The notes beneath the pieces were generated by a model. It saw only the letters and a program-made list of their open reading frames with translations, did no database searches and had not been told where the DNA came from. Shown here piece after piece: positions 1-7,485 of a stretch of 7,977 nucleotides of DNA. Source of the stretch: a virus (lineage: Duplodnaviria; Heunggongvirae; Uroviricota; Caudoviricetes); IMG/VR virus record IMGVR_UViG_2545824714_000009; one strand, given 5' to 3'. The position numbers and the translations under genes were made by a program. Within the stretch, counting starts at the first letter, position 1; each line of letters begins with the position of its first letter.

Positions 1-583
<583 letters not shown>

Positions 584-676
584 TTTGTTCTCCACGTATA
601 TGCGCTGCACCGCGCTGAATTCTGGTAAAAAGAATCCCTCACCATCCGGCGATTATTGAGTAAATTACGTTTCCAT

Positions 677-3046: not shown

Positions 3047-3083
3047 TTGCGAGACATGCAAGTGATATTTGCGAGATATGCAA
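3047..3083. promoter_or_regulatory. Putative OL operator pair (two 15-bp near-palindromic sites) with the likely PL promoter
   Basis: TTGCGAGACATGCAA (3047-3061) and TTGCGAGATATGCAA (3069-3083), 22 bp centre to centre, share the TTGCG-N5-(A/T)GCAA architecture with the site at 3851-3865 between cI and cro. They lie just beyond the cI terminator, where OL/PL sits in lambdoid phages. Confidence 0.5.
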
Positions 3084-3096
3084 ATTTATAGGTAAT

Positions 3097-3117
3097 AAAA
3101 AGCCACCTTTCGGTGGC
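3097..3117 (-). terminator. Intrinsic terminator downstream of the repressor gene
   Basis: Minus-strand RNA GCCACC-GAAA-GGUGGC (6-bp GC stem, GNRA tetraloop; 3117-3102) followed by UUUUUAUU (3101-3094), 21 nt after the cI stop. Confidence 0.65.
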
Positions 3118-3137
3118 CGATGGATGGGATATTGAGG

Positions 3138-3830
3138 TTAATTATGTCTCTTAAGGGTTTGCGACTGACTGATTAAGACCTTTCCAAAGACCATGAATCG
3201 GTGTTCGTTTTCGCTAGTAATTCCCCATTCACGGTAAATCTGGTTATCAGAAATCACCAGCAGTTTGTCAGGAATCATTTGAAGTCTTTTAACGTATATT
3301 TTGTCATCAAAACCAAAGACATATATACCATCACCATCAAACTGATTGATGCTGACATCAACGAAGATGAGATCTCCGGGCTCAATGGTTGGACACATAC
3401 TGTCCCCACGAACGTTGATAACTTTGATGTGATTGGCTGGTCGTCCGCCGAACATTGATACAGCATTATCAGTTCTGTATTCGATGGCATGAATCACATC
3501 AATGACATCACCGCCCTGGATAAGGCCATTTCCCGCACTGGCACTGATATCCAGCATTTCAATACGGAACACATCCTTCACCTGCGCAACATCCTCATTA
3601 TTACTGTTTTTATATACAGTATTACTTTTGTGGGCAGAGGTAAAGAGATCAGCAATATCAACACCTAAGCTCTTGGCAATATTACTCAGTGTTTGTTCGG
3701 TAAATTGTTTTTGCTTACCCGTTTCTAAGCGCGAGATGTTCGCCGCATCTACTCCTATCGCTTCAGCGAGATCGGCGATTTTCATGTTCTTCGCTTGGCG
3801 AAGTTGTCTGACTCGGTTTCCTATGTTCAT
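3138..3830 (-). CDS. cI: CI-like prophage repressor: N-terminal XRE-type HTH plus C-terminal S24 (LexA-like) autopeptidase domain
   Basis: 230-aa ORF. N-terminus RVRQLRQAKNMKIADLAEAIGVDAANISRLETGKQ is an XRE-type HTH; there is an Ala-Gly candidate cleavage site (SASAGNG), a catalytic Ser in GDSM and a Lys in YVKRL. It is divergent from a Cro-like gene. No SD upstream; the -10/-35 spacing suggests a leaderless mRNA. Confidence 0.9.
   Translation of the reverse strand: MNIGNRVRQLRQAKNMKIADLAEAIGVDAANISRLETGKQKQFTEQTLSNIAKSLGVDIADLFTSAHKSNTVYKNSNNEDVAQVKDVFRIEMLDISASAGNGLIQGGDVIDVIHAIEYRTDNAVSMFGGRPANHIKVINVRGDSMCPTIEPGDLIFVDVSINQFDGDGIYVFGFDDKIYVKRLQMIPDKLLVISDNQIYREWGITSENEHRFMVFGKVLISQSQTLKRHN
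3602..3621. promoter_or_regulatory. Near-consensus LexA (SOS) box located inside the cI coding sequence
   Basis: TACTGTTTTTATATACAGTA matches the E. coli LexA box consensus TACTGTATATATATACAGTA at 18 of 20 positions, with intact CTGT-N8-ACAG. It is the only CTGT-N8-ACAG in the window and encodes TVYKNS in the CI inter-domain linker. Confidence 0.45.
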
Positions 3831-3927
3831 GCGTTTATTACATTTCTTTATTGCGTGATAAGCAAATCAACTTGCGCAAAATAATTGCGTGAAATAACAT
3901 GCATAACGCGCAATATTTGGAGGGCGT
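3831..3927. promoter_or_regulatory. Divergent immunity control region (OR-like operators, PRM-like and PR-like promoters)
   Basis: Operator-like site TTGCGTGATAAGCAA (3851-3865), palindrome TTGCGCAA (3872-3879) and further TTGCG/CGCAA half-sites (3885-3889, 3909-3913). Leftward promoter candidate: -35 TTGCTT, 17-bp spacer, -10 TGTAAT at -12..-7 relative to the cI ATG. Rightward candidate: -35 TTGCGC (3872-3877), 17 bp, -10 TAACAT (3895-3900), then GGAGG SD 5 nt before the cro ATG. Confidence 0.6.
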
Positions 3928-4188
3928 ATGCAATCACCATTACGAAATGTGCGTAAGGCGCATGGTTTCACTTTGCAGCATGTTGCTGCGGGTGTTCAAG
4001 TCAATCCAGCGACGTTGAGTCGTATTGAGAGGCTGGAGCAGATTCCATCTATCGAGCTTGCAGAACGTTTAGCCAATTTTTTTAAGGGTGAAGTCAGCGA
4101 AATGCAGATTCTTTATCCGGCACGTTTTCAATCTAGCCAAAACCAGAATGGGTTTAAACCACAGGAACAGGAGGTGAACCGTGGGTAA
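3928..4188 (+). CDS. cro: Cro-like HTH regulator (86 aa)
   Basis: ATG at 3928 with GGAGG 5 nt upstream. N-terminal HTH (GFTLQHVAAGVQVNPATLSRIE); divergent from the CI-like gene across an operator-bearing region. Confidence 0.8.
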   Translation: MQSPLRNVRKAHGFTLQHVAAGVQVNPATLSRIERLEQIPSIELAERLANFFKGEVSEMQILYPARFQSSQNQNGFKPQEQEVNRG

Positions 4189-4732
4189 GCATCACTGGAA
4201 AGTAGAAAAACAGCCTGAGTGGTACGTGAAAGCTGTCAGAAAAACTATCGCAGCGTTGCCGGGGGGGTACGCTGAAGCTGCTGACTGGCTGGATGTAACA
4301 GAGAACGCATTATTTAACCGCCTTCGTGCCGATGGCGATCAGATTTTCCCGCTGGGATGGGCAATGATTTTGCAACGTGCTGGTGGAACTCACTTCATTG
4401 CTGACGCTGTGGCGCAGTCTGCAAATGGCGTCTTTGTGTCTCTTCCTGATGTCGAGGATGTGGACAACGCCGATATCAACCAACGCCTGCTGGAGGTCAT
4501 TGAACAGATCGGCAGTTATTCAAAACAGATTCGTTCAGCAATCGAAGACGGTGTAGTGGAACCGCATGAGAAAACTGCAATTAACGACGAGCTATATCTC
4601 TCAATTTCGAAGCTGCAGGAGCATGCAGCACTGGTCTACAAAATCTTTTGCATTTCAGAAAGTAATGACGCCCGCGAGTGTGCAGCTCCGGGCGCCGTGG
4701 CGTGTCGTGACTGTGGAGAAACTAACGCATGA
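4181..4732 (+). CDS. CII-position early protein (183 aa); possibly YdaT/CII-like regulator, with a C-terminal Cys cluster
   Basis: GTG start at 4181 preceded by AGGAGGT with a 5-nt spacer, overlapping the cro stop by 8 nt. Sits directly after cro. C-terminus contains CxxxxxxxCxxC ([12 protein letters not shown]). Family assignment is from recollection and context only. Confidence 0.7.
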
Positions 4733-5076: not shown

Positions 5077-6018
5077 ATGAGCACTAAATTAACCGGCTAT
5101 GTATGGGATGGTTGCGCAGCGTCAGGCATGAAATTATCCAGCGTGGCAATTATGGCCCGCCTGGCTGATTTCAGTAATGACGAAGGTGTGTGCTGGCCAT
5201 CAATTGAAACCATTGCCCGTCAGATTGGCGCGGGGATGAGTACCGTCAGAACGGCTATCGCACGGCTGGAAGCAGAAGGCTGGTTAACGCGTAAGGCGCG
5301 TCGCCAGGGTAACCGCAATGCGTCGAATGTTTATCAGCTTAACGTTGCGAAGCTTCAGGCAGCGGCATTTTCTCAACTGTCAGATTCTGACCCGTCAAAA
5401 TCTGACGCATCAAAATCTGACCCGTCAAAATTTGATGCGTCGAAATCTGGCAAAAAAGCGGGTTTTCACCCGTCAGAATCTGGCGGGGATCCGTCAGTAA
5501 AATCAAAACATGATCCGTCAGATAAAAAAACTTCTCGTCCGGACGCTTCGCAACCGGACACGCAGACGGCTGAACAGGAGTTTTTAACTCGCCATCCTGA
5601 TGCGGTTGTATTCAGCCCTAAAAAGCGCCAGTGGGGAACGCAGGATGATTTGACCTGCGCACAGTGGCTCTGGAAAAAAATCATCGCCCTGTACGAGCAG
5701 GCCGCCGAATGTGACGGCGAGGTGGTTCGTCCCAAAGAACCGAACTGGACAGCCTGGGCAAACGAAATTCGCCTGATGTGTGTGCAGGATGGTCGTACTC
5801 ATAAACAAATCTGCGAGATGTACAGCCGCGTCAGTCGCGATCCGTTCTGGTGCCGTAACGTGCTCAGCCCGTCGAAGCTGCGGGAAAAATGGGATGAGCT
5901 TTCCCTGCGCTTATCGCCGTCCGTCAGCACGTACACCGAAAAACGCGAAGACCCGTACTTCAAAGCCAGTTACGACAACGTGGACTACAGCCAGATCCCG
6001 GCAGGATTCAGGGGGTGA
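5077..6018 (+). CDS. Phage replication initiator: N-terminal winged-HTH domain, internal repeat region, DnaT-like C-terminal domain
   Basis: 313-aa ORF with GAGG 7 nt upstream. N-terminus (…WPSIETIARQIGAGMSTVRTAIARLEAEGWL) is HTH-like. The C-terminus ends …DYSQIPAGFRG, resembling the C-terminal end of E. coli DnaT as I recall it (…SQIPPGFRG). An iteron array lies inside the gene, as in lambda O. Confidence 0.85.
   Translation: MSTKLTGYVWDGCAASGMKLSSVAIMARLADFSNDEGVCWPSIETIARQIGAGMSTVRTAIARLEAEGWLTRKARRQGNRNASNVYQLNVAKLQAAAFSQLSDSDPSKSDASKSDPSKFDASKSGKKAGFHPSESGGDPSVKSKHDPSDKKTSRPDASQPDTQTAEQEFLTRHPDAVVFSPKKRQWGTQDDLTCAQWLWKKIIALYEQAAECDGEVVRPKEPNWTAWANEIRLMCVQDGRTHKQICEMYSRVSRDPFWCRNVLSPSKLREKWDELSLRLSPSVSTYTEKREDPYFKASYDNVDYSQIPAGFRG
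5386..5530. repeat. Iteron array plus A-rich tract inside the replication gene: candidate origin of replication
   Basis: 15-bp periodic units TCTGACCCGTCAAAA / TCTGACGCATCAAAA / TCTGACCCGTCAAAA / TTTGATGCGTCGAAA (5386-5445), with further CCGTCAG cores at 5470, 5491 and 5515, followed by GATAAAAAAAC (5521-5531). The coding-level equivalent is a DPSKS/DASKS pentapeptide repeat. Confidence 0.65.
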
Positions 6019-6509: not shown

Positions 6510-7162
6510 TGAGTAATAAATATTGCCAGGCGCTGGTGGAACTGCGGAACAAACCAGCCCATGAACTGAAGGAAGTGGGCGATCAGTGGCGCACGCCGGA
6601 CAACATTTTCTGGGGAATTAACACCCTGTTTGGCCCGTTTGTTCTGGATCTGTTCACTGACGGTGATAACGCCAAATGTGCCGCGTATTACACGGCGGAA
6701 GACAACGCGCTGGCGCATGACTGGTCAGAACGTCTTGCGGAGCTTAAAGGTGCTGCCTTTGGTAATCCCCCATACAGCCGCGCCAGTCAGCATGAGGGGC
6801 AATACATCACCGGCATGCGTTACATCATGAAACATGCCAGTGCCATGCGTGATAAGGGCGGGCGCTATGTTTTCCTGATCAAAGCTGCCACCAGCGAAGT
6901 GTGGTGGCCGGAAGATGCAGATCATATTGCTTTTATTCGCGGGCGTATTGGTTTTGAACTGCCTGTCTGGTTTATCCCGAAAGACGAGAAGCAGGTACCG
7001 ACAGGAGCTTTTTTCGCTGGTGCTATTGCTGTTTTTGACAAGACCTGGAAGGGACCGGCAATCAGCTACATCGGGCGCGATGAACTTGAGGCATGTGGTG
7101 AGGCGTTTCTGGCGCAGGTTCGCCAGCAGGCGGAAAAACTGGTCAGGGAGATGGCGGCATGA
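6509..7162 (+). CDS. Phage Dam-family DNA N6-adenine methyltransferase (orphan; no restriction partner in window)
   Basis: ATG at 6509 overlaps the upstream TAA (translational coupling; alternative GTG at 6476). Contains the NPPY catalytic motif (FGNPPYSR) and WRTPDNIFWG…FVLDLFTD, typical of phage Dam-type methyltransferases. Confidence 0.85.
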   Translation: MSNKYCQALVELRNKPAHELKEVGDQWRTPDNIFWGINTLFGPFVLDLFTDGDNAKCAAYYTAEDNALAHDWSERLAELKGAAFGNPPYSRASQHEGQYITGMRYIMKHASAMRDKGGRYVFLIKAATSEVWWPEDADHIAFIRGRIGFELPVWFIPKDEKQVPTGAFFAGAIAVFDKTWKGPAISYIGRDELEACGEAFLAQVRQQAEKLVREMAA

Positions 7163-7485
7163 CGACGTTAACTCAATGCCAGCAGCAGGTGCTGGATATG
7201 CTGATTTCTTATCAGAAAGAACGTGGCTTCCCGCCAACCAATCAGGAGGTGGCAACCATGCTGGGATACCGTTCGGTGAATGCAGCGGTGGAGCATCTTC
7301 GCGCACTGGAGAAAAAAGGCGTCATCACGATAAAGCGTGGCGTGGCCCGGGGGATAACGCTTCATACCGCGGTGAAGGACGACGACAGCGAGGCGGTCGG
7401 GATTATCCGCGCACTGCTTGCCGGTGAGGAAAACGCAAGGCTGCGTGCAACCCACTGGTTACATGAGAGGGACCTGAAAGTATGA
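7159..7485 (+). CDS. LexA N-terminal DNA-binding-domain homolog lacking the S24 autocleavage domain (108 aa)
   Basis: ATGA overlap with the Dam stop; AGGGAG 8 nt upstream. LTQCQQQVLDMLISYQKERGFPPTNQEVATMLGYRSVNAAVEHLRALEKKGVITIKRGVARGITL aligns closely with E. coli LexA residues ~5-70 ([65 protein letters not shown]), including the recognition-helix SxNAAxEHL. The following ~40 aa have no Ser/Lys peptidase motifs. Confidence 0.8.
   Translation: MTTLTQCQQQVLDMLISYQKERGFPPTNQEVATMLGYRSVNAAVEHLRALEKKGVITIKRGVARGITLHTAVKDDDSEAVGIIRALLAGEENARLRATHWLHERDLKV

What the first reader, a model, noticed from the sequence alone, without database searches (positions are those of the whole stretch)
3602..3621. 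Near-perfect SOS (LexA) box embedded in the CI repressor coding sequence
TACTGTTTTTATATACAGTA differs from the idealised LexA box at only 2 of 20 positions, both in the AT-rich spacer. It is the only CTGT-N8-ACAG in 8 kb, where about 0.1 is expected by chance. It lies in the linker between the HTH and S24 domains of the repressor (codons TVYKNS), not in a promoter. That placement suggests a direct SOS input into the immunity switch: a LexA-controlled internal promoter, an antisense transcript, or a roadblock. I found only weak -10/-35 candidates on either strand, so the mechanism is open.
Basis: partly seen in the sequence, partly recalled or inferred. Interest (0 to 1): 0.65.

Follow-up and report, generated by a model that had tools for sequence, protein, structure and literature searches.

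The report
SOS operator nested inside phage repressor gene
A top-strength binding site for the bacterial DNA-damage regulator LexA is conserved at the DNA level inside the coding sequence of a very common phage repressor gene, and it probably switches on a hidden promoter that makes a shortened, DNA-binding-deficient copy of the repressor when the cell is damaged.

Summary
TACTGTTTTTATATACAGTA lies at 3602-3621. On the cI-coding strand it is identical to the E. coli umuDC and sbmC LexA operators, and it is the only strong LexA site in the window.

It is not chance. In 34 of 35 family representatives (48-100% amino-acid identity, many Enterobacterales genera, phages SfII, ST64B, mEp460, Stx2a_1447, ENT47670) a 14-30-bit LexA box sits at the same codons of a hypervariable linker. 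Those seven codons have the lowest third-position entropy in the gene (0.24 vs 1.44 bits) although the amino acids vary.

Three further signals point to a nested, sense-strand expression unit:
- A -35-like hexamer lies exactly 17 nt upstream in 33/34, the geometry of the umuDC promoter.
- An SD plus in-frame GTG/ATG lies 40-58 nt downstream in 32/34, against 3.7% of control windows.
- The Val87 codon is GTG in 27/29.

Best reading: a LexA-repressed intragenic promoter yields a UmuD-sized C-terminal (S24/dimerisation) isoform of CI that antagonises the full-length repressor. The operator is well supported. The promoter and isoform are inferred, and the isoform's effect is a hypothesis. I found no published description. 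It is a new variant of LexA-controlled antirepression.

The parts
3602..3621 (-). LexA (SOS) operator, TACTGTATATAAAAACAGTA on the cI sense strand. Its first six bases (3616-3621) are also the proposed -10 hexamer TACTGT.
   Evidence: Searches show the sequence. Searches show identity to the umuD and sbmC operators. One search gives 26.6 bits. Searches show DNA-level conservation in 34/35 family representatives.
3639..3644 (-). Proposed -35 hexamer TTTACC (codons F63-T64), 17 nt upstream of the box.
   Evidence: TTTACn-17-TACTGT scores 7.3-8.6 bits. The spacing is 17 nt in 33/34 representatives. The layout is the same as umuD TTGATC-17-box and as a functional 47-bp synthetic SOS promoter. This is inferred; no TSS data were available.
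3592..3596 (-). Shine-Dalgarno-like GAGGA upstream of the internal start.
   Evidence: Duplex energy with the anti-SD is -6.4 kcal/mol. An SD-like element is conserved in 32/34 representatives although different amino acids are encoded.
3579..3581 (-). Candidate internal start GTG (codon 84), 40 nt from the start of the box. An alternative GTG lies at codon 87 (3570-3572).
   Evidence: The Val87 column is GTG in 27/29 family members, against 6-34% at the other Val columns outside the box.
3138..3581 (-). Nested in-frame ORF for a C-terminal isoform of CI (147 aa from V84, or 144 aa from V87). It contains the Ala99-Gly100 cleavage site, Ser144, Lys181 and the whole S24 domain, and no HTH.
   Evidence: One search gives the translation and motifs. 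One search places PF00717 at residues 104-218. One search shows the nearest solved relatives are UmuD/UmuD'.
3138..3830 (-). cI repressor gene (230 aa, HTH + S24 peptidase).
   Evidence: It is 99.3% identical to the Shigella phage SfII cI region.
3101..3118 (-). Intrinsic terminator directly after cI. It would end both the full-length transcript and the internal transcript.
   Evidence: It is annotated as a terminator in SfII.
3851..3913 (.). OR region with CI operators of type TTGC-N7-GCAA (3851-3865; 3899-3913 with one mismatch). These are unrelated to the LexA box.
3047..3083 (.). OL operators TTGC-N7-GCAA (3047-3061 and 3069-3083), downstream of the cI terminator.

Best explanation
The 20-mer is a genuine, high-affinity LexA operator kept by selection inside the cI reading frame. 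It overlaps the -10 and start region of an intragenic, sense-strand sigma-70 promoter: -35 TTTACC at 3644-3639, a 17-nt spacer, and -10 TACTGT, which is the left half-site. In an undamaged lysogen LexA keeps this promoter shut. When LexA is depleted, which for an operator of umuDC strength should happen only under heavy or sustained damage, a short mRNA starts inside the box. It carries an SD (GAGGA) and an in-frame GTG (codon 84 or 87) and ends at the cI terminator. Its product is a 144-147-aa CI isoform. This isoform lacks the HTH domain but keeps the cleavage loop and the S24 dimerisation domain, and it is about the size of UmuD. I propose that it forms mixed dimers or oligomers with full-length CI. 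Such dimers have one DNA-binding domain or none, so operator occupancy at OR and OL falls and induction is promoted. This would add a LexA-gated input to the RecA-stimulated autocleavage that this CI appears able to undergo. What is shown: the sequence, its identity to the umuDC operator, DNA-level conservation, the conserved spacing, the SD and the start codon. What is inferred: LexA binding, promoter activity and translation of the isoform. What is hypothesis: the dominant-negative, pro-induction effect. The confidence given (0.5) is for the whole chain. For the operator alone it is about 0.9, and for the operator plus sense promoter and nested isoform about 0.6-0.65.
For: (1) Operator quality. 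The box is identical to the umuD and sbmC operators and scores 26.6 bits, above recA, sulA and lexA. (2) Selection on DNA rather than protein. The box is at the same codons in 34/35 representatives down to 48% amino-acid identity. Thr71 is always ACT and Ser76 is AGT in 94%, against 30-60% top-codon use at most other invariant 4-6-fold degenerate residues. The 7-codon window at codon 70 has the lowest third-position entropy of 222 windows (0.24 vs a mean of 1.44 bits), while its amino-acid entropy is above average. Residue 75 is N/H/Y/D/T/P/S, always from an nnC codon. (3) Sense promoter. TTTACn-17-TACTGT scores 7.3-8.6 bits; 68% of representatives exceed the control 95th percentile, against 15% for the antisense strand. 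The Phe63 hexamer to box distance is 17 nt in 33/34 even though the sequence between them is hypervariable. Where that -35 is poor, Pantoea allii and Rosenbergiella carry a perfect TATAAT in the box spacer with its own -35. (4) The layout matches umuD, which has TTGATC-17-the same 20-mer and 39 nt from box start to ATG, against 40 nt to GTG84 here. A 47-bp synthetic TTGACA-17-box fragment is a working SOS-inducible promoter (PMC9074414). (5) Nested translation signals. An in-frame GTG/ATG with SD dG <= -5.3 is present in 32/34, against 3.7% of 874 control windows. The SD is encoded by different amino-acid pairs in different lineages. Val87 is GTG in 27/29, against 6-34% at 14 other Val columns. 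(6) Correlated loss. In Dryocola the box is lost or degenerate, and the GTG (now GGT/GGA) and the SD are gone too. (7) A terminator directly follows cI, so the transcript can encode only the CTD. (8) It is the only LexA site of at least 15 bits within +/-3 kb in all family loci. (9) An operator this tight fits a product whose leaky expression would be harmful. This last point is inference.
Against: There is no experimental evidence for LexA binding, for a transcription start in the box, or for the short protein. dRNA-seq TSS tables for ST64B-carrying Salmonella could not be accessed. The -35 hexamer comes from conserved Phe-Thr codons, so its presence may reflect protein constraint alone. In the ENT47670 subgroup it is poor (TTCTCT, 4.9 bits), and some members there have better antisense scores. 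The half-site TACTGT scores as a -10 simply because it fits TAnnnT. In the E. coli and Salmonella group the SD-to-GTG84 spacing is long (about 11 nt), and GTG87 has only a weak SD. Two box-bearing representatives lack an in-frame start in the window. The representatives are related to one another, so the counts are not independent events. Whether a CTD isoform promotes or delays induction cannot be decided from sequence. The AF2 model was too poor to define the domain boundary.
Confidence: 0.5

Rival explanations
1. The same nested unit exists, but its function is the opposite. The SOS-induced CTD isoform protects the lysogen. It could act as a decoy substrate or competitor for activated RecA, or it could bind CI monomers and shield them from cleavage. 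Either way it would raise the damage threshold for induction. Functionally this resembles 434 Hex or DinI.
For: All the structural evidence for the nested unit applies equally. The isoform keeps the Ala-Gly site and the Ser/Lys dyad, so it should itself interact with RecA*. 434 Hex shows that phages do encode modulators that block RecA-mediated repressor cleavage (PMC3564112).
Against: A protective factor does not need the tightest class of LexA operator. Mixed dimers with only one DNA-binding domain would still weaken repression. ST64B, which carries the box, is reported to be induced quickly by ciprofloxacin, earlier than the Gifsy phages.
Confidence: 0.15
2. Roadblock. LexA bound inside cI stalls RNA polymerase coming from PRM or PRE. 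This limits full-length cI mRNA in undamaged cells, and the block is released during SOS, which would buffer CI levels.
For: The site is about 210 nt into the transcribed gene and has very high predicted affinity. cI transcript levels in ST64B rise modestly under peroxide shock. Strand-independent function would explain why the full palindrome is conserved.
Against: It does not predict the invariant 17-nt distance to a -35-like hexamer. It does not predict the SD plus in-frame start in 32/34 or the frozen GTG at Val87. It does not predict their joint loss with the box in Dryocola. A repressor that throttles its own maintenance transcript in healthy cells has no obvious benefit. LexA is not known to me as an efficient elongation block.
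Confidence: 0.1
3. Antisense promoter. The box controls a + strand promoter whose RNA runs antisense through the 5' third of cI and PRM towards cro. After LexA loss it would silence cI or feed transcription into the lytic operon.
For: The right half-site TACAGT also fits TAnnnT and is the best antisense -10 in 19/34. A few members, such as P. allii, L160 and L162, reach about 10 bits. The phi106 aimX case shows LexA acting through a sense/antisense arrangement in another phage.
Against: The antisense -35 would lie in the hypervariable segment and is not conserved. Only 15% of representatives exceed the control 95th percentile, and in the window the best antisense score is 4.8 bits. The model does not explain the sense-strand SD and GTG signals. 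No antisense ORF is conserved and no Rfam family matches.
Confidence: 0.1
4. The site is mainly the target of the phage's own LexA-DNA-binding-domain protein (7159-7485) rather than host LexA. For example, it could shut the internal unit or modulate cI during lytic growth.
For: That protein has a LexA_DNA_bind domain (2.9e-19). It is 43% identical to the E. coli LexA N-terminal domain, and its recognition helix is nearly identical. GIL01 gp6 is a precedent for a phage LexA-NTD homologue with a regulatory role (PMC6182141, listed).
Against: The gene was found only in SfII-type loci (L001, L087, L089), whereas the box is family-wide. However, flanks were limited to 3 kb. The box matches the host consensus in every host genus. 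This reading is compatible with the main model rather than an alternative to it.
Confidence: 0.05
5. There is no regulatory function. The motif is kept because the peptide T-V-Y-K-N-S matters to the protein, or the match is a chance or hitch-hiking feature.
For: T71, V72 and S76 are invariant amino acids. A single CTGT-N8-ACAG in 8 kb is not significant on its own.
Against: Synonymous positions are frozen (ACT 100%, AGT 94%, TAT), while residues 70, 73, 74 and 75 vary as amino acids and yet keep the bases the operator needs. ENT47670 encodes D-T-V-D-T-Y-S and still has a 22-bit box. All boxes score in the range of proven operators.
Confidence: 0.03

Closest known systems
E. coli umuDC promoter-operator and UmuD
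   Same: The 20-bp operator is identical. The layout is the same: a -35, a 17-nt spacer, the box with TACTGT at the -10 position, and 39 vs 40 nt from box start to the start codon. The product is an S24-fold protein of similar size (139 vs 144-147 aa) with an N-terminal arm before a cleavage site. UmuD/UmuD' are the nearest solved structures to the CI C-terminal part.
   Different: Here the whole unit lies in-frame inside a larger repressor gene, and its -35, operator and SD double as linker codons. No umuC follows; a terminator does. Sequence similarity to UmuD is remote (E about 2e-4). Nothing suggests a role in translesion synthesis.
LexA-controlled antirepressors of temperate phages (coliphage 186 Tum, Gifsy GfoA/GftA, N15 AntC)
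   Same: Host LexA directly gates production of a protein that inactivates the prophage repressor, which links induction to the SOS response (Gifsy summary in PMC7067206; the rest is from general knowledge).
   Different: Those antirepressors are separate small genes unrelated to their repressors, and the repressors they target are not self-cleaving. Here the proposed antagonist is an in-frame truncated isoform of the repressor itself, and the repressor retains the Ala-Gly/Ser/Lys autocleavage motifs. It would therefore receive both RecA and LexA inputs.
Nested in-frame inhibitor isoforms (Tn5 transposase/inhibitor; phiC31 repressor isoforms)
   Same: A second promoter and start codon inside an ORF give an N-terminally truncated protein. 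That protein lacks the DNA-binding end, keeps the multimerisation domain, and antagonises or modulates the full-length form (general knowledge).
   Different: Those cases are not phage CI/S24 repressors, and the internal promoter is not under a LexA operator embedded in the codons. Neither the isoform nor its activity has been demonstrated here.
Bacteriophage 434 Hex
   Same: A second product linked to the repressor transcription unit tunes RecA-dependent induction (PMC3564112).
   Different: Hex is a distinct ORF 3' of cI, made from the PRM transcript. It is not LexA-regulated and is not a repressor isoform, and it stabilises lysogeny.

Membership tests
Gammaproteobacterial LexA operator (SOS box) | Palindrome CTGT-N8-ACAG with an AT-rich spacer and TA flanks, scoring within the range of proven sites | tested here: met
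   The box is identical to the umuD and sbmC operators. It scores 26.6 bits with a PWM that excludes those two sites, against 6.6-27.6 for the known sites.
Gammaproteobacterial LexA operator (SOS box) | Conservation of the site in orthologous positions across species | tested here: met
   34/35 representatives carry the box at the same codons. The third-position entropy of this window is the lowest of 222 windows.
Gammaproteobacterial LexA operator (SOS box) | Overlap with a promoter so that binding blocks initiation | tested here: inconclusive
   TTTACn-17-TACTGT has the same geometry as umuDC and as a functional 47-bp synthetic promoter. No transcription start data were available, and the -35 is weak in one subgroup.
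Gammaproteobacterial LexA operator (SOS box) | LexA binding and LexA/RecA-dependent expression | not testable with these tools
   This needs EMSA or footprinting, ChIP, and reporter or 5'-end mapping in lexA mutants.
CI/LexA-type self-cleaving S24 repressor | N-terminal HTH domain plus C-terminal Peptidase_S24 domain | tested here: met
   PF01381/PF13443 match residues 7-64 and PF00717 matches residues 104-218.
CI/LexA-type self-cleaving S24 repressor | Ala-Gly cleavage site and Ser/Lys catalytic dyad | tested here: met
   A99-G100, S144 (GDSM) and K181 (VKRL) are invariant in the family. The Ser and Lys align to UmuD. Actual cleavage was not tested.
LexA-controlled phage antirepressor module (Tum/GfoA/AntC type) | A separate antirepressor gene with a LexA box in its own promoter | tested here: not met
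   No other LexA site of at least 15 bits lies within +/-3 kb in any family locus. The only box is inside cI. The apparent second box in the Rha gene of relatives scores 6.7 bits.
LexA-controlled phage antirepressor module (Tum/GfoA/AntC type) | The target repressor is not RecA-cleavable | tested here: not met
   The cleavage motifs are intact.
Nested in-frame truncated regulator isoform (Tn5 Inh type) | In-frame internal start codon with its own ribosome-binding site | tested here: met
   32/34 representatives have it, against 3.7% of control windows. Val87 is GTG in 27/29. This is a sequence-level test only.
Nested in-frame truncated regulator isoform (Tn5 Inh type) | The short product exists and inhibits the full-length protein through mixed multimers | not testable with these tools
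   This needs immunoblots, pull-downs and induction assays.

The most novel reading that the evidence does not exclude
The cI gene of this widespread immunity type is a two-in-one gene. This type includes SfII, ST64B, mEp460 and several Stx2 phages, and occurs in about one in five complete E. coli genomes. Its linker codons would double as a complete umuDC-style promoter, LexA operator and ribosome-binding site, so that severe DNA damage makes the repressor gene express its own UmuD-like C-terminal half as an antirepressor. This would be a LexA-gated induction pathway working alongside RecA-mediated cleavage. It may have arisen by fusion of an HTH domain onto a LexA-regulated umuD-like gene.
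Probability: 0.4. Interest if true: 0.85.

Novelty: new variant of a known kind. Interest (0 to 1): 0.78.

Why it matters
Textbook lambdoid induction has one SOS input, RecA-stimulated repressor cleavage. A second class of phages uses LexA-controlled antirepressor genes. If the model holds, this family would combine both inputs in a single gene, with regulatory DNA written into coding sequence. That would be a clear case of dual-use codons under measurable selection. The repressor type is common: at least 90% identical copies occur in about 1,040 of 5,426 complete E. coli genomes. It also occurs in Stx2-converting phages, Shigella serotype-converting phages and Salmonella ST64B. Its induction logic therefore bears on Shiga-toxin release and on prophage-mediated killing by quinolones. 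It also gives a simple test: synonymous mutations that destroy the operator. More generally, it shows that transcription-factor sites inside ORFs should not be dismissed when their synonymous positions are frozen.

Tried and rejected
- **Close relatives only:** a viral-contig scan with the window protein returned only 100% identical copies. That was useless for divergence, so I re-queried with distant members and with genome contigs.
- **Second CTGT-N8-ACAG in the relatives' Rha/antirepressor gene:** it scores 6.7 bits and was rejected as chance.
- **STnc1310:** this DNA-damage-induced ncRNA near ST64B cI lies about 330 nt downstream of the gene, in the early-left operon. It is not the internal transcript.
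- **TSS tables for D23580 and 4/74:** they are not held as text.
- **AlphaFold2 model from a 22-sequence alignment:** mean pLDDT was 48, so it could not be used for the CTD boundary.
- **'S24 family peptidase' genes in E. coli:** I considered them as possible free-standing CTD genes, but they are ordinary full-length repressors without a box.
- **Box as a CI operator:** rejected, because the CI operators are TTGC-N7-GCAA.
- **Conserved overlapping or antisense ORF:** rejected.
- **Known RNA family:** none matches.
- **434 Hex as a precedent:** it has a different architecture.
- **e14 ymfK and LexA literature:** nothing relevant was found.
- **Promoter scan tool:** the generic scan found no promoter near the box at its thresholds. 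The candidate emerged only from a PWM scan and the umuDC comparison.
Full report
**1. Observation**

The window is a lambdoid prophage immunity region. It is 99.3% identical to Shigella phage SfII. Its genes are:
- cI at 3138-3830 on the minus strand (230 aa, HTH + Peptidase_S24), followed by an intrinsic terminator at 3118-3101;
- cro at 3928-4188;
- a CII/YmfL-like gene at 4181-4732.

The reported 20-mer TACTGTTTTTATATACAGTA is at 3602-3621. It is the only CTGT-N8-ACAG in the window, where 0.12 is expected; 21 of 200 shuffles gave at least one match, so this count alone is weak evidence.

On the cI sense strand the sequence reads TACTGTATATAAAAACAGTA. That is identical to the LexA operators of umuD and sbmC in E. 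coli (PMC3009722 Table 4). I built a PWM from the other 16 operators in that table. The box scores 26.6 bits, compared with recA 20.4, sulA 20.0 and lexA 19.1. The next-best site in the window scores 8.1. The box is not a CI operator. The CI operators here are TTGC-N7-GCAA, in OR (3851-3865, 3899-3913) and OL (3047-3061, 3069-3083).

**2. Is it more than chance? Conservation at the DNA level**

Phages about 90% identical (mEp460, Stx2a_1447, phiSTEC1575-Stx2k, 1720a-02, PhiR47_1) keep the box, with substitutions clustered immediately on either side.

A protein alignment of homologs at 69-83% identity shows a hypervariable linker in which only T71, V72 and S76 are invariant.

I recovered DNA from one genome per species, from named phages and from viral contigs queried with distant members. 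This gave 165 genes, 117 unique proteins and 39 representatives below 90% identity to each other.
- Of the 35 representatives with at least 48% identity to the query, 34 have a LexA box of 13.6-29.6 bits at the same codons. They come from Escherichia/Shigella, Salmonella (ST64B), Citrobacter, Klebsiella, Kluyvera, Trabulsiella, Buttiauxella, Pantoea, Mixta, Rosenbergiella, Serratia, Proteus and Cronobacter (ENT47670).
- Relatives at about 40% identity (BTP1, HK022, PhiR5_1, PHL101) lack the box.

The codon alignment reads nnT ACT GTA TAT AAn nnC AGT.
- Thr71 is ACT in 100% of sequences and Ser76 is AGT in 94%. Most other invariant residues of 4- to 6-fold degeneracy in the same sequences use their commonest codon only 30-60% of the time.
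- The 7-codon window starting at codon 70 has the lowest third-position entropy of all 222 windows in the gene (0.24 bits against a mean of 1.44). Its amino-acid entropy (1.28) is above the gene mean (1.04).
- Codons 70, 73 and 75 vary freely as amino acids (1.7-2.6 bits) but are almost fixed at the third base (0-0.19 bits).
- ENT47670 encodes D-T-V-D-T-Y-S and still has a 22-bit box.

This pattern indicates selection on the DNA sequence, not on the peptide.

**3. What the box controls**

*A sense-strand promoter.* A sigma-70 PWM scan finds TTTACn-17-TACTGT at a conserved position, with the -10 being the left half-site of the box.
- It scores 7.3-8.6 bits.
- 68% of representatives exceed the 95th percentile of control windows, against 15% for the antisense strand.
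- The hexamer starts at the Phe63 codon. Its distance to the box is exactly 17 nt in 33 of 34 representatives, although the codons in between are hypervariable.
- Pantoea allii and Rosenbergiella lack a good hexamer at that position. They instead carry a perfect TATAAT inside the box spacer with its own -35, again on the sense strand.

The native umuD upstream region has the same layout: TTGATC, 17 nt, the same 20-mer, and 39 nt from box start to the ATG. In cI it is 40 nt from box start to GTG84. A 47-bp synthetic fragment made of TTGACA, the native 17-nt umuDC spacer and the box is reported to be a tight SOS-inducible promoter (PMC9074414). So this geometry alone is sufficient for a LexA-repressed promoter.

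*A nested translation unit.* In 32 of 34 box-bearing representatives an in-frame GTG or ATG with an SD-like element (dG <= -5.3 kcal/mol) lies 40-58 nt after the start of the box. The same combination occurs in 3.7% of 874 control windows, and at no more than 29% of representatives at any other single position.
- The SD is encoded by different amino-acid pairs in different lineages (E-G, E-D, G-D, Q-E, R-R-E-G, G-G).
- The conserved Val87 is GTG in 27 of 29 cases. At 14 other conserved Val columns GTG accounts for 6-34%.
- In Dryocola the box is lost or degenerate. There the GTG has become GGT/GGA and the SD is absent as well.

*The product.* Because a terminator follows cI, such a transcript can encode only residues 84/87-230. 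This 144-147-aa product contains the Ala99-Gly100 site, Ser144, Lys181 and the whole S24 domain, and no HTH. Its nearest solved relatives are UmuD and UmuD', and it is about the size of UmuD.

**4. Mechanism proposed**

LexA represses an intragenic promoter. An operator of umuDC strength should be derepressed only when LexA is strongly depleted. The short mRNA then yields a C-terminal isoform of CI. S24-type repressors dimerise and cooperate through this domain (established knowledge for lambda CI and LexA). The isoform should therefore form mixed oligomers with full-length CI that bind operators poorly, which would promote induction. This CI keeps its cleavage motifs, so the LexA input would add to RecA-stimulated autocleavage.

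The opposite outcome is also possible. The isoform could act as a decoy that competes for activated RecA and delays induction, much as 434 Hex stabilises lysogeny (PMC3564112). I favour the antagonist reading for two reasons. Very tight operators are what one expects for a product that is harmful if it leaks. ST64B is reported to be induced rapidly by ciprofloxacin. Both points are inference.

My confidence in each step is about 0.9 that this is a selected LexA operator, about 0.6-0.65 that it controls a sense promoter and nested isoform, and about 0.4-0.5 for the pro-induction role.

**5. Rival explanations**

- **Roadblock.** A LexA block to PRM transcription does not predict the fixed 17-nt spacing, the SD with GTG, or their joint loss with the box.
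- **Antisense promoter.** This lacks a conserved -35 and scores poorly in most members. No antisense or alternative-frame ORF is conserved, and no Rfam family matches.
- **Binding by the phage's own LexA-DBD protein.** The protein at 7159-7485 is 43% identical to the LexA N-terminal domain. Binding is plausible, but the gene was found only in SfII-type loci.
- **Protein-level conservation or chance.** The synonymous-site data contradict both.

**6. Comparison with what is known**

The closest regulatory template is the umuDC promoter-operator. The closest functional class is the LexA-controlled antirepressors (186 Tum, Gifsy GfoA/GftA, N15 AntC). The closest architectural class is nested in-frame inhibitor isoforms such as the Tn5 inhibitor.

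This case fails the defining features of the antirepressor-module class, because there is no separate gene and the repressor is cleavable. So it works like that class without being a member of it.

Six searches of the full-text library aimed at LexA sites or truncated isoforms inside phage repressor genes found no description of this arrangement. The library does not cover everything, so an earlier report cannot be excluded.

**7. Scope and verdict**

At 90% identity or better, this repressor is present in about 1,040 of 5,426 complete E. coli genomes. It also occurs in Stx2 phages, Shigella serotype-converting phages and Salmonella ST64B.

The most likely mechanism, a LexA-gated nested C-terminal isoform, is a new variant of known SOS-phage coupling and can be tested directly with synonymous mutations.

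Noticed in passing
window 7159-7485 (+): A 108-aa protein consists of a LexA DNA-binding domain only (PF01726, 2.9e-19). It is 43% identical to E. coli LexA residues 1-86, and its recognition helix is nearly identical (SVNAAVEHL vs SPNAAEEHL). It has no S24 domain, so it could be an uncleavable LexA mimic expressed from the early-right operon. It was found only in SfII-type loci.
   Followed up: partly
window 100-285 (+) and 329-610 (-): An IS21-type IstB C-terminal fragment lies next to a YfdR-like (HD-domain) ORF. This suggests an IS insertion has disrupted the left end of the prophage early-left region.
   Followed up: no
window 5077-6018 (+), repeats near 5390-5470: The O-like replication initiator gene contains in-frame peptide repeats (DPSKSDASKSDPSKFDASKS). 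These probably correspond to origin iterons embedded in the coding sequence.
   Followed up: no
window 3047-3083 and 3851-3913: The CI operators of this immunity type appear to be TTGC-N7-GCAA. Two lie in OL, directly after the cI terminator, and at least two lie in OR.
   Followed up: partly
L102 and L103 (Dryocola clanedunensis), gene nt ~210: This is the only family lineage without a proper box. One strain has lost it. The other has a GC-rich palindrome, CGCTGTGCAAAAGCACAGCG (7.5 bits), that keeps CTGT-N8-ACAG. Both have also lost the Val87 GTG and the SD.
   Followed up: partly
L108 (contig labelled Actinomadura rugatobispora, 1.4 kb): A short contig attributed to an actinomycete carries an enterobacterial-type cI fragment with a 25-bit LexA box. 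This is most likely assembly contamination.
   Followed up: no
L002 3336-3355 (mEp460) and the equivalent position in L003-L006: A second CTGT-N8-ACAG lies about 100 nt into the Rha/antirepressor gene of the ~90% relatives. It scores only 6.7 bits and is probably chance.
   Followed up: yes
L107 2766-2785 (Phaseolibacter flectens): This 40%-identical repressor lacks the internal box. It has a 16.9-bit LexA-like site about 235 nt upstream of the gene, in the divergent control region, which may be a different way of wiring in LexA.
   Followed up: no
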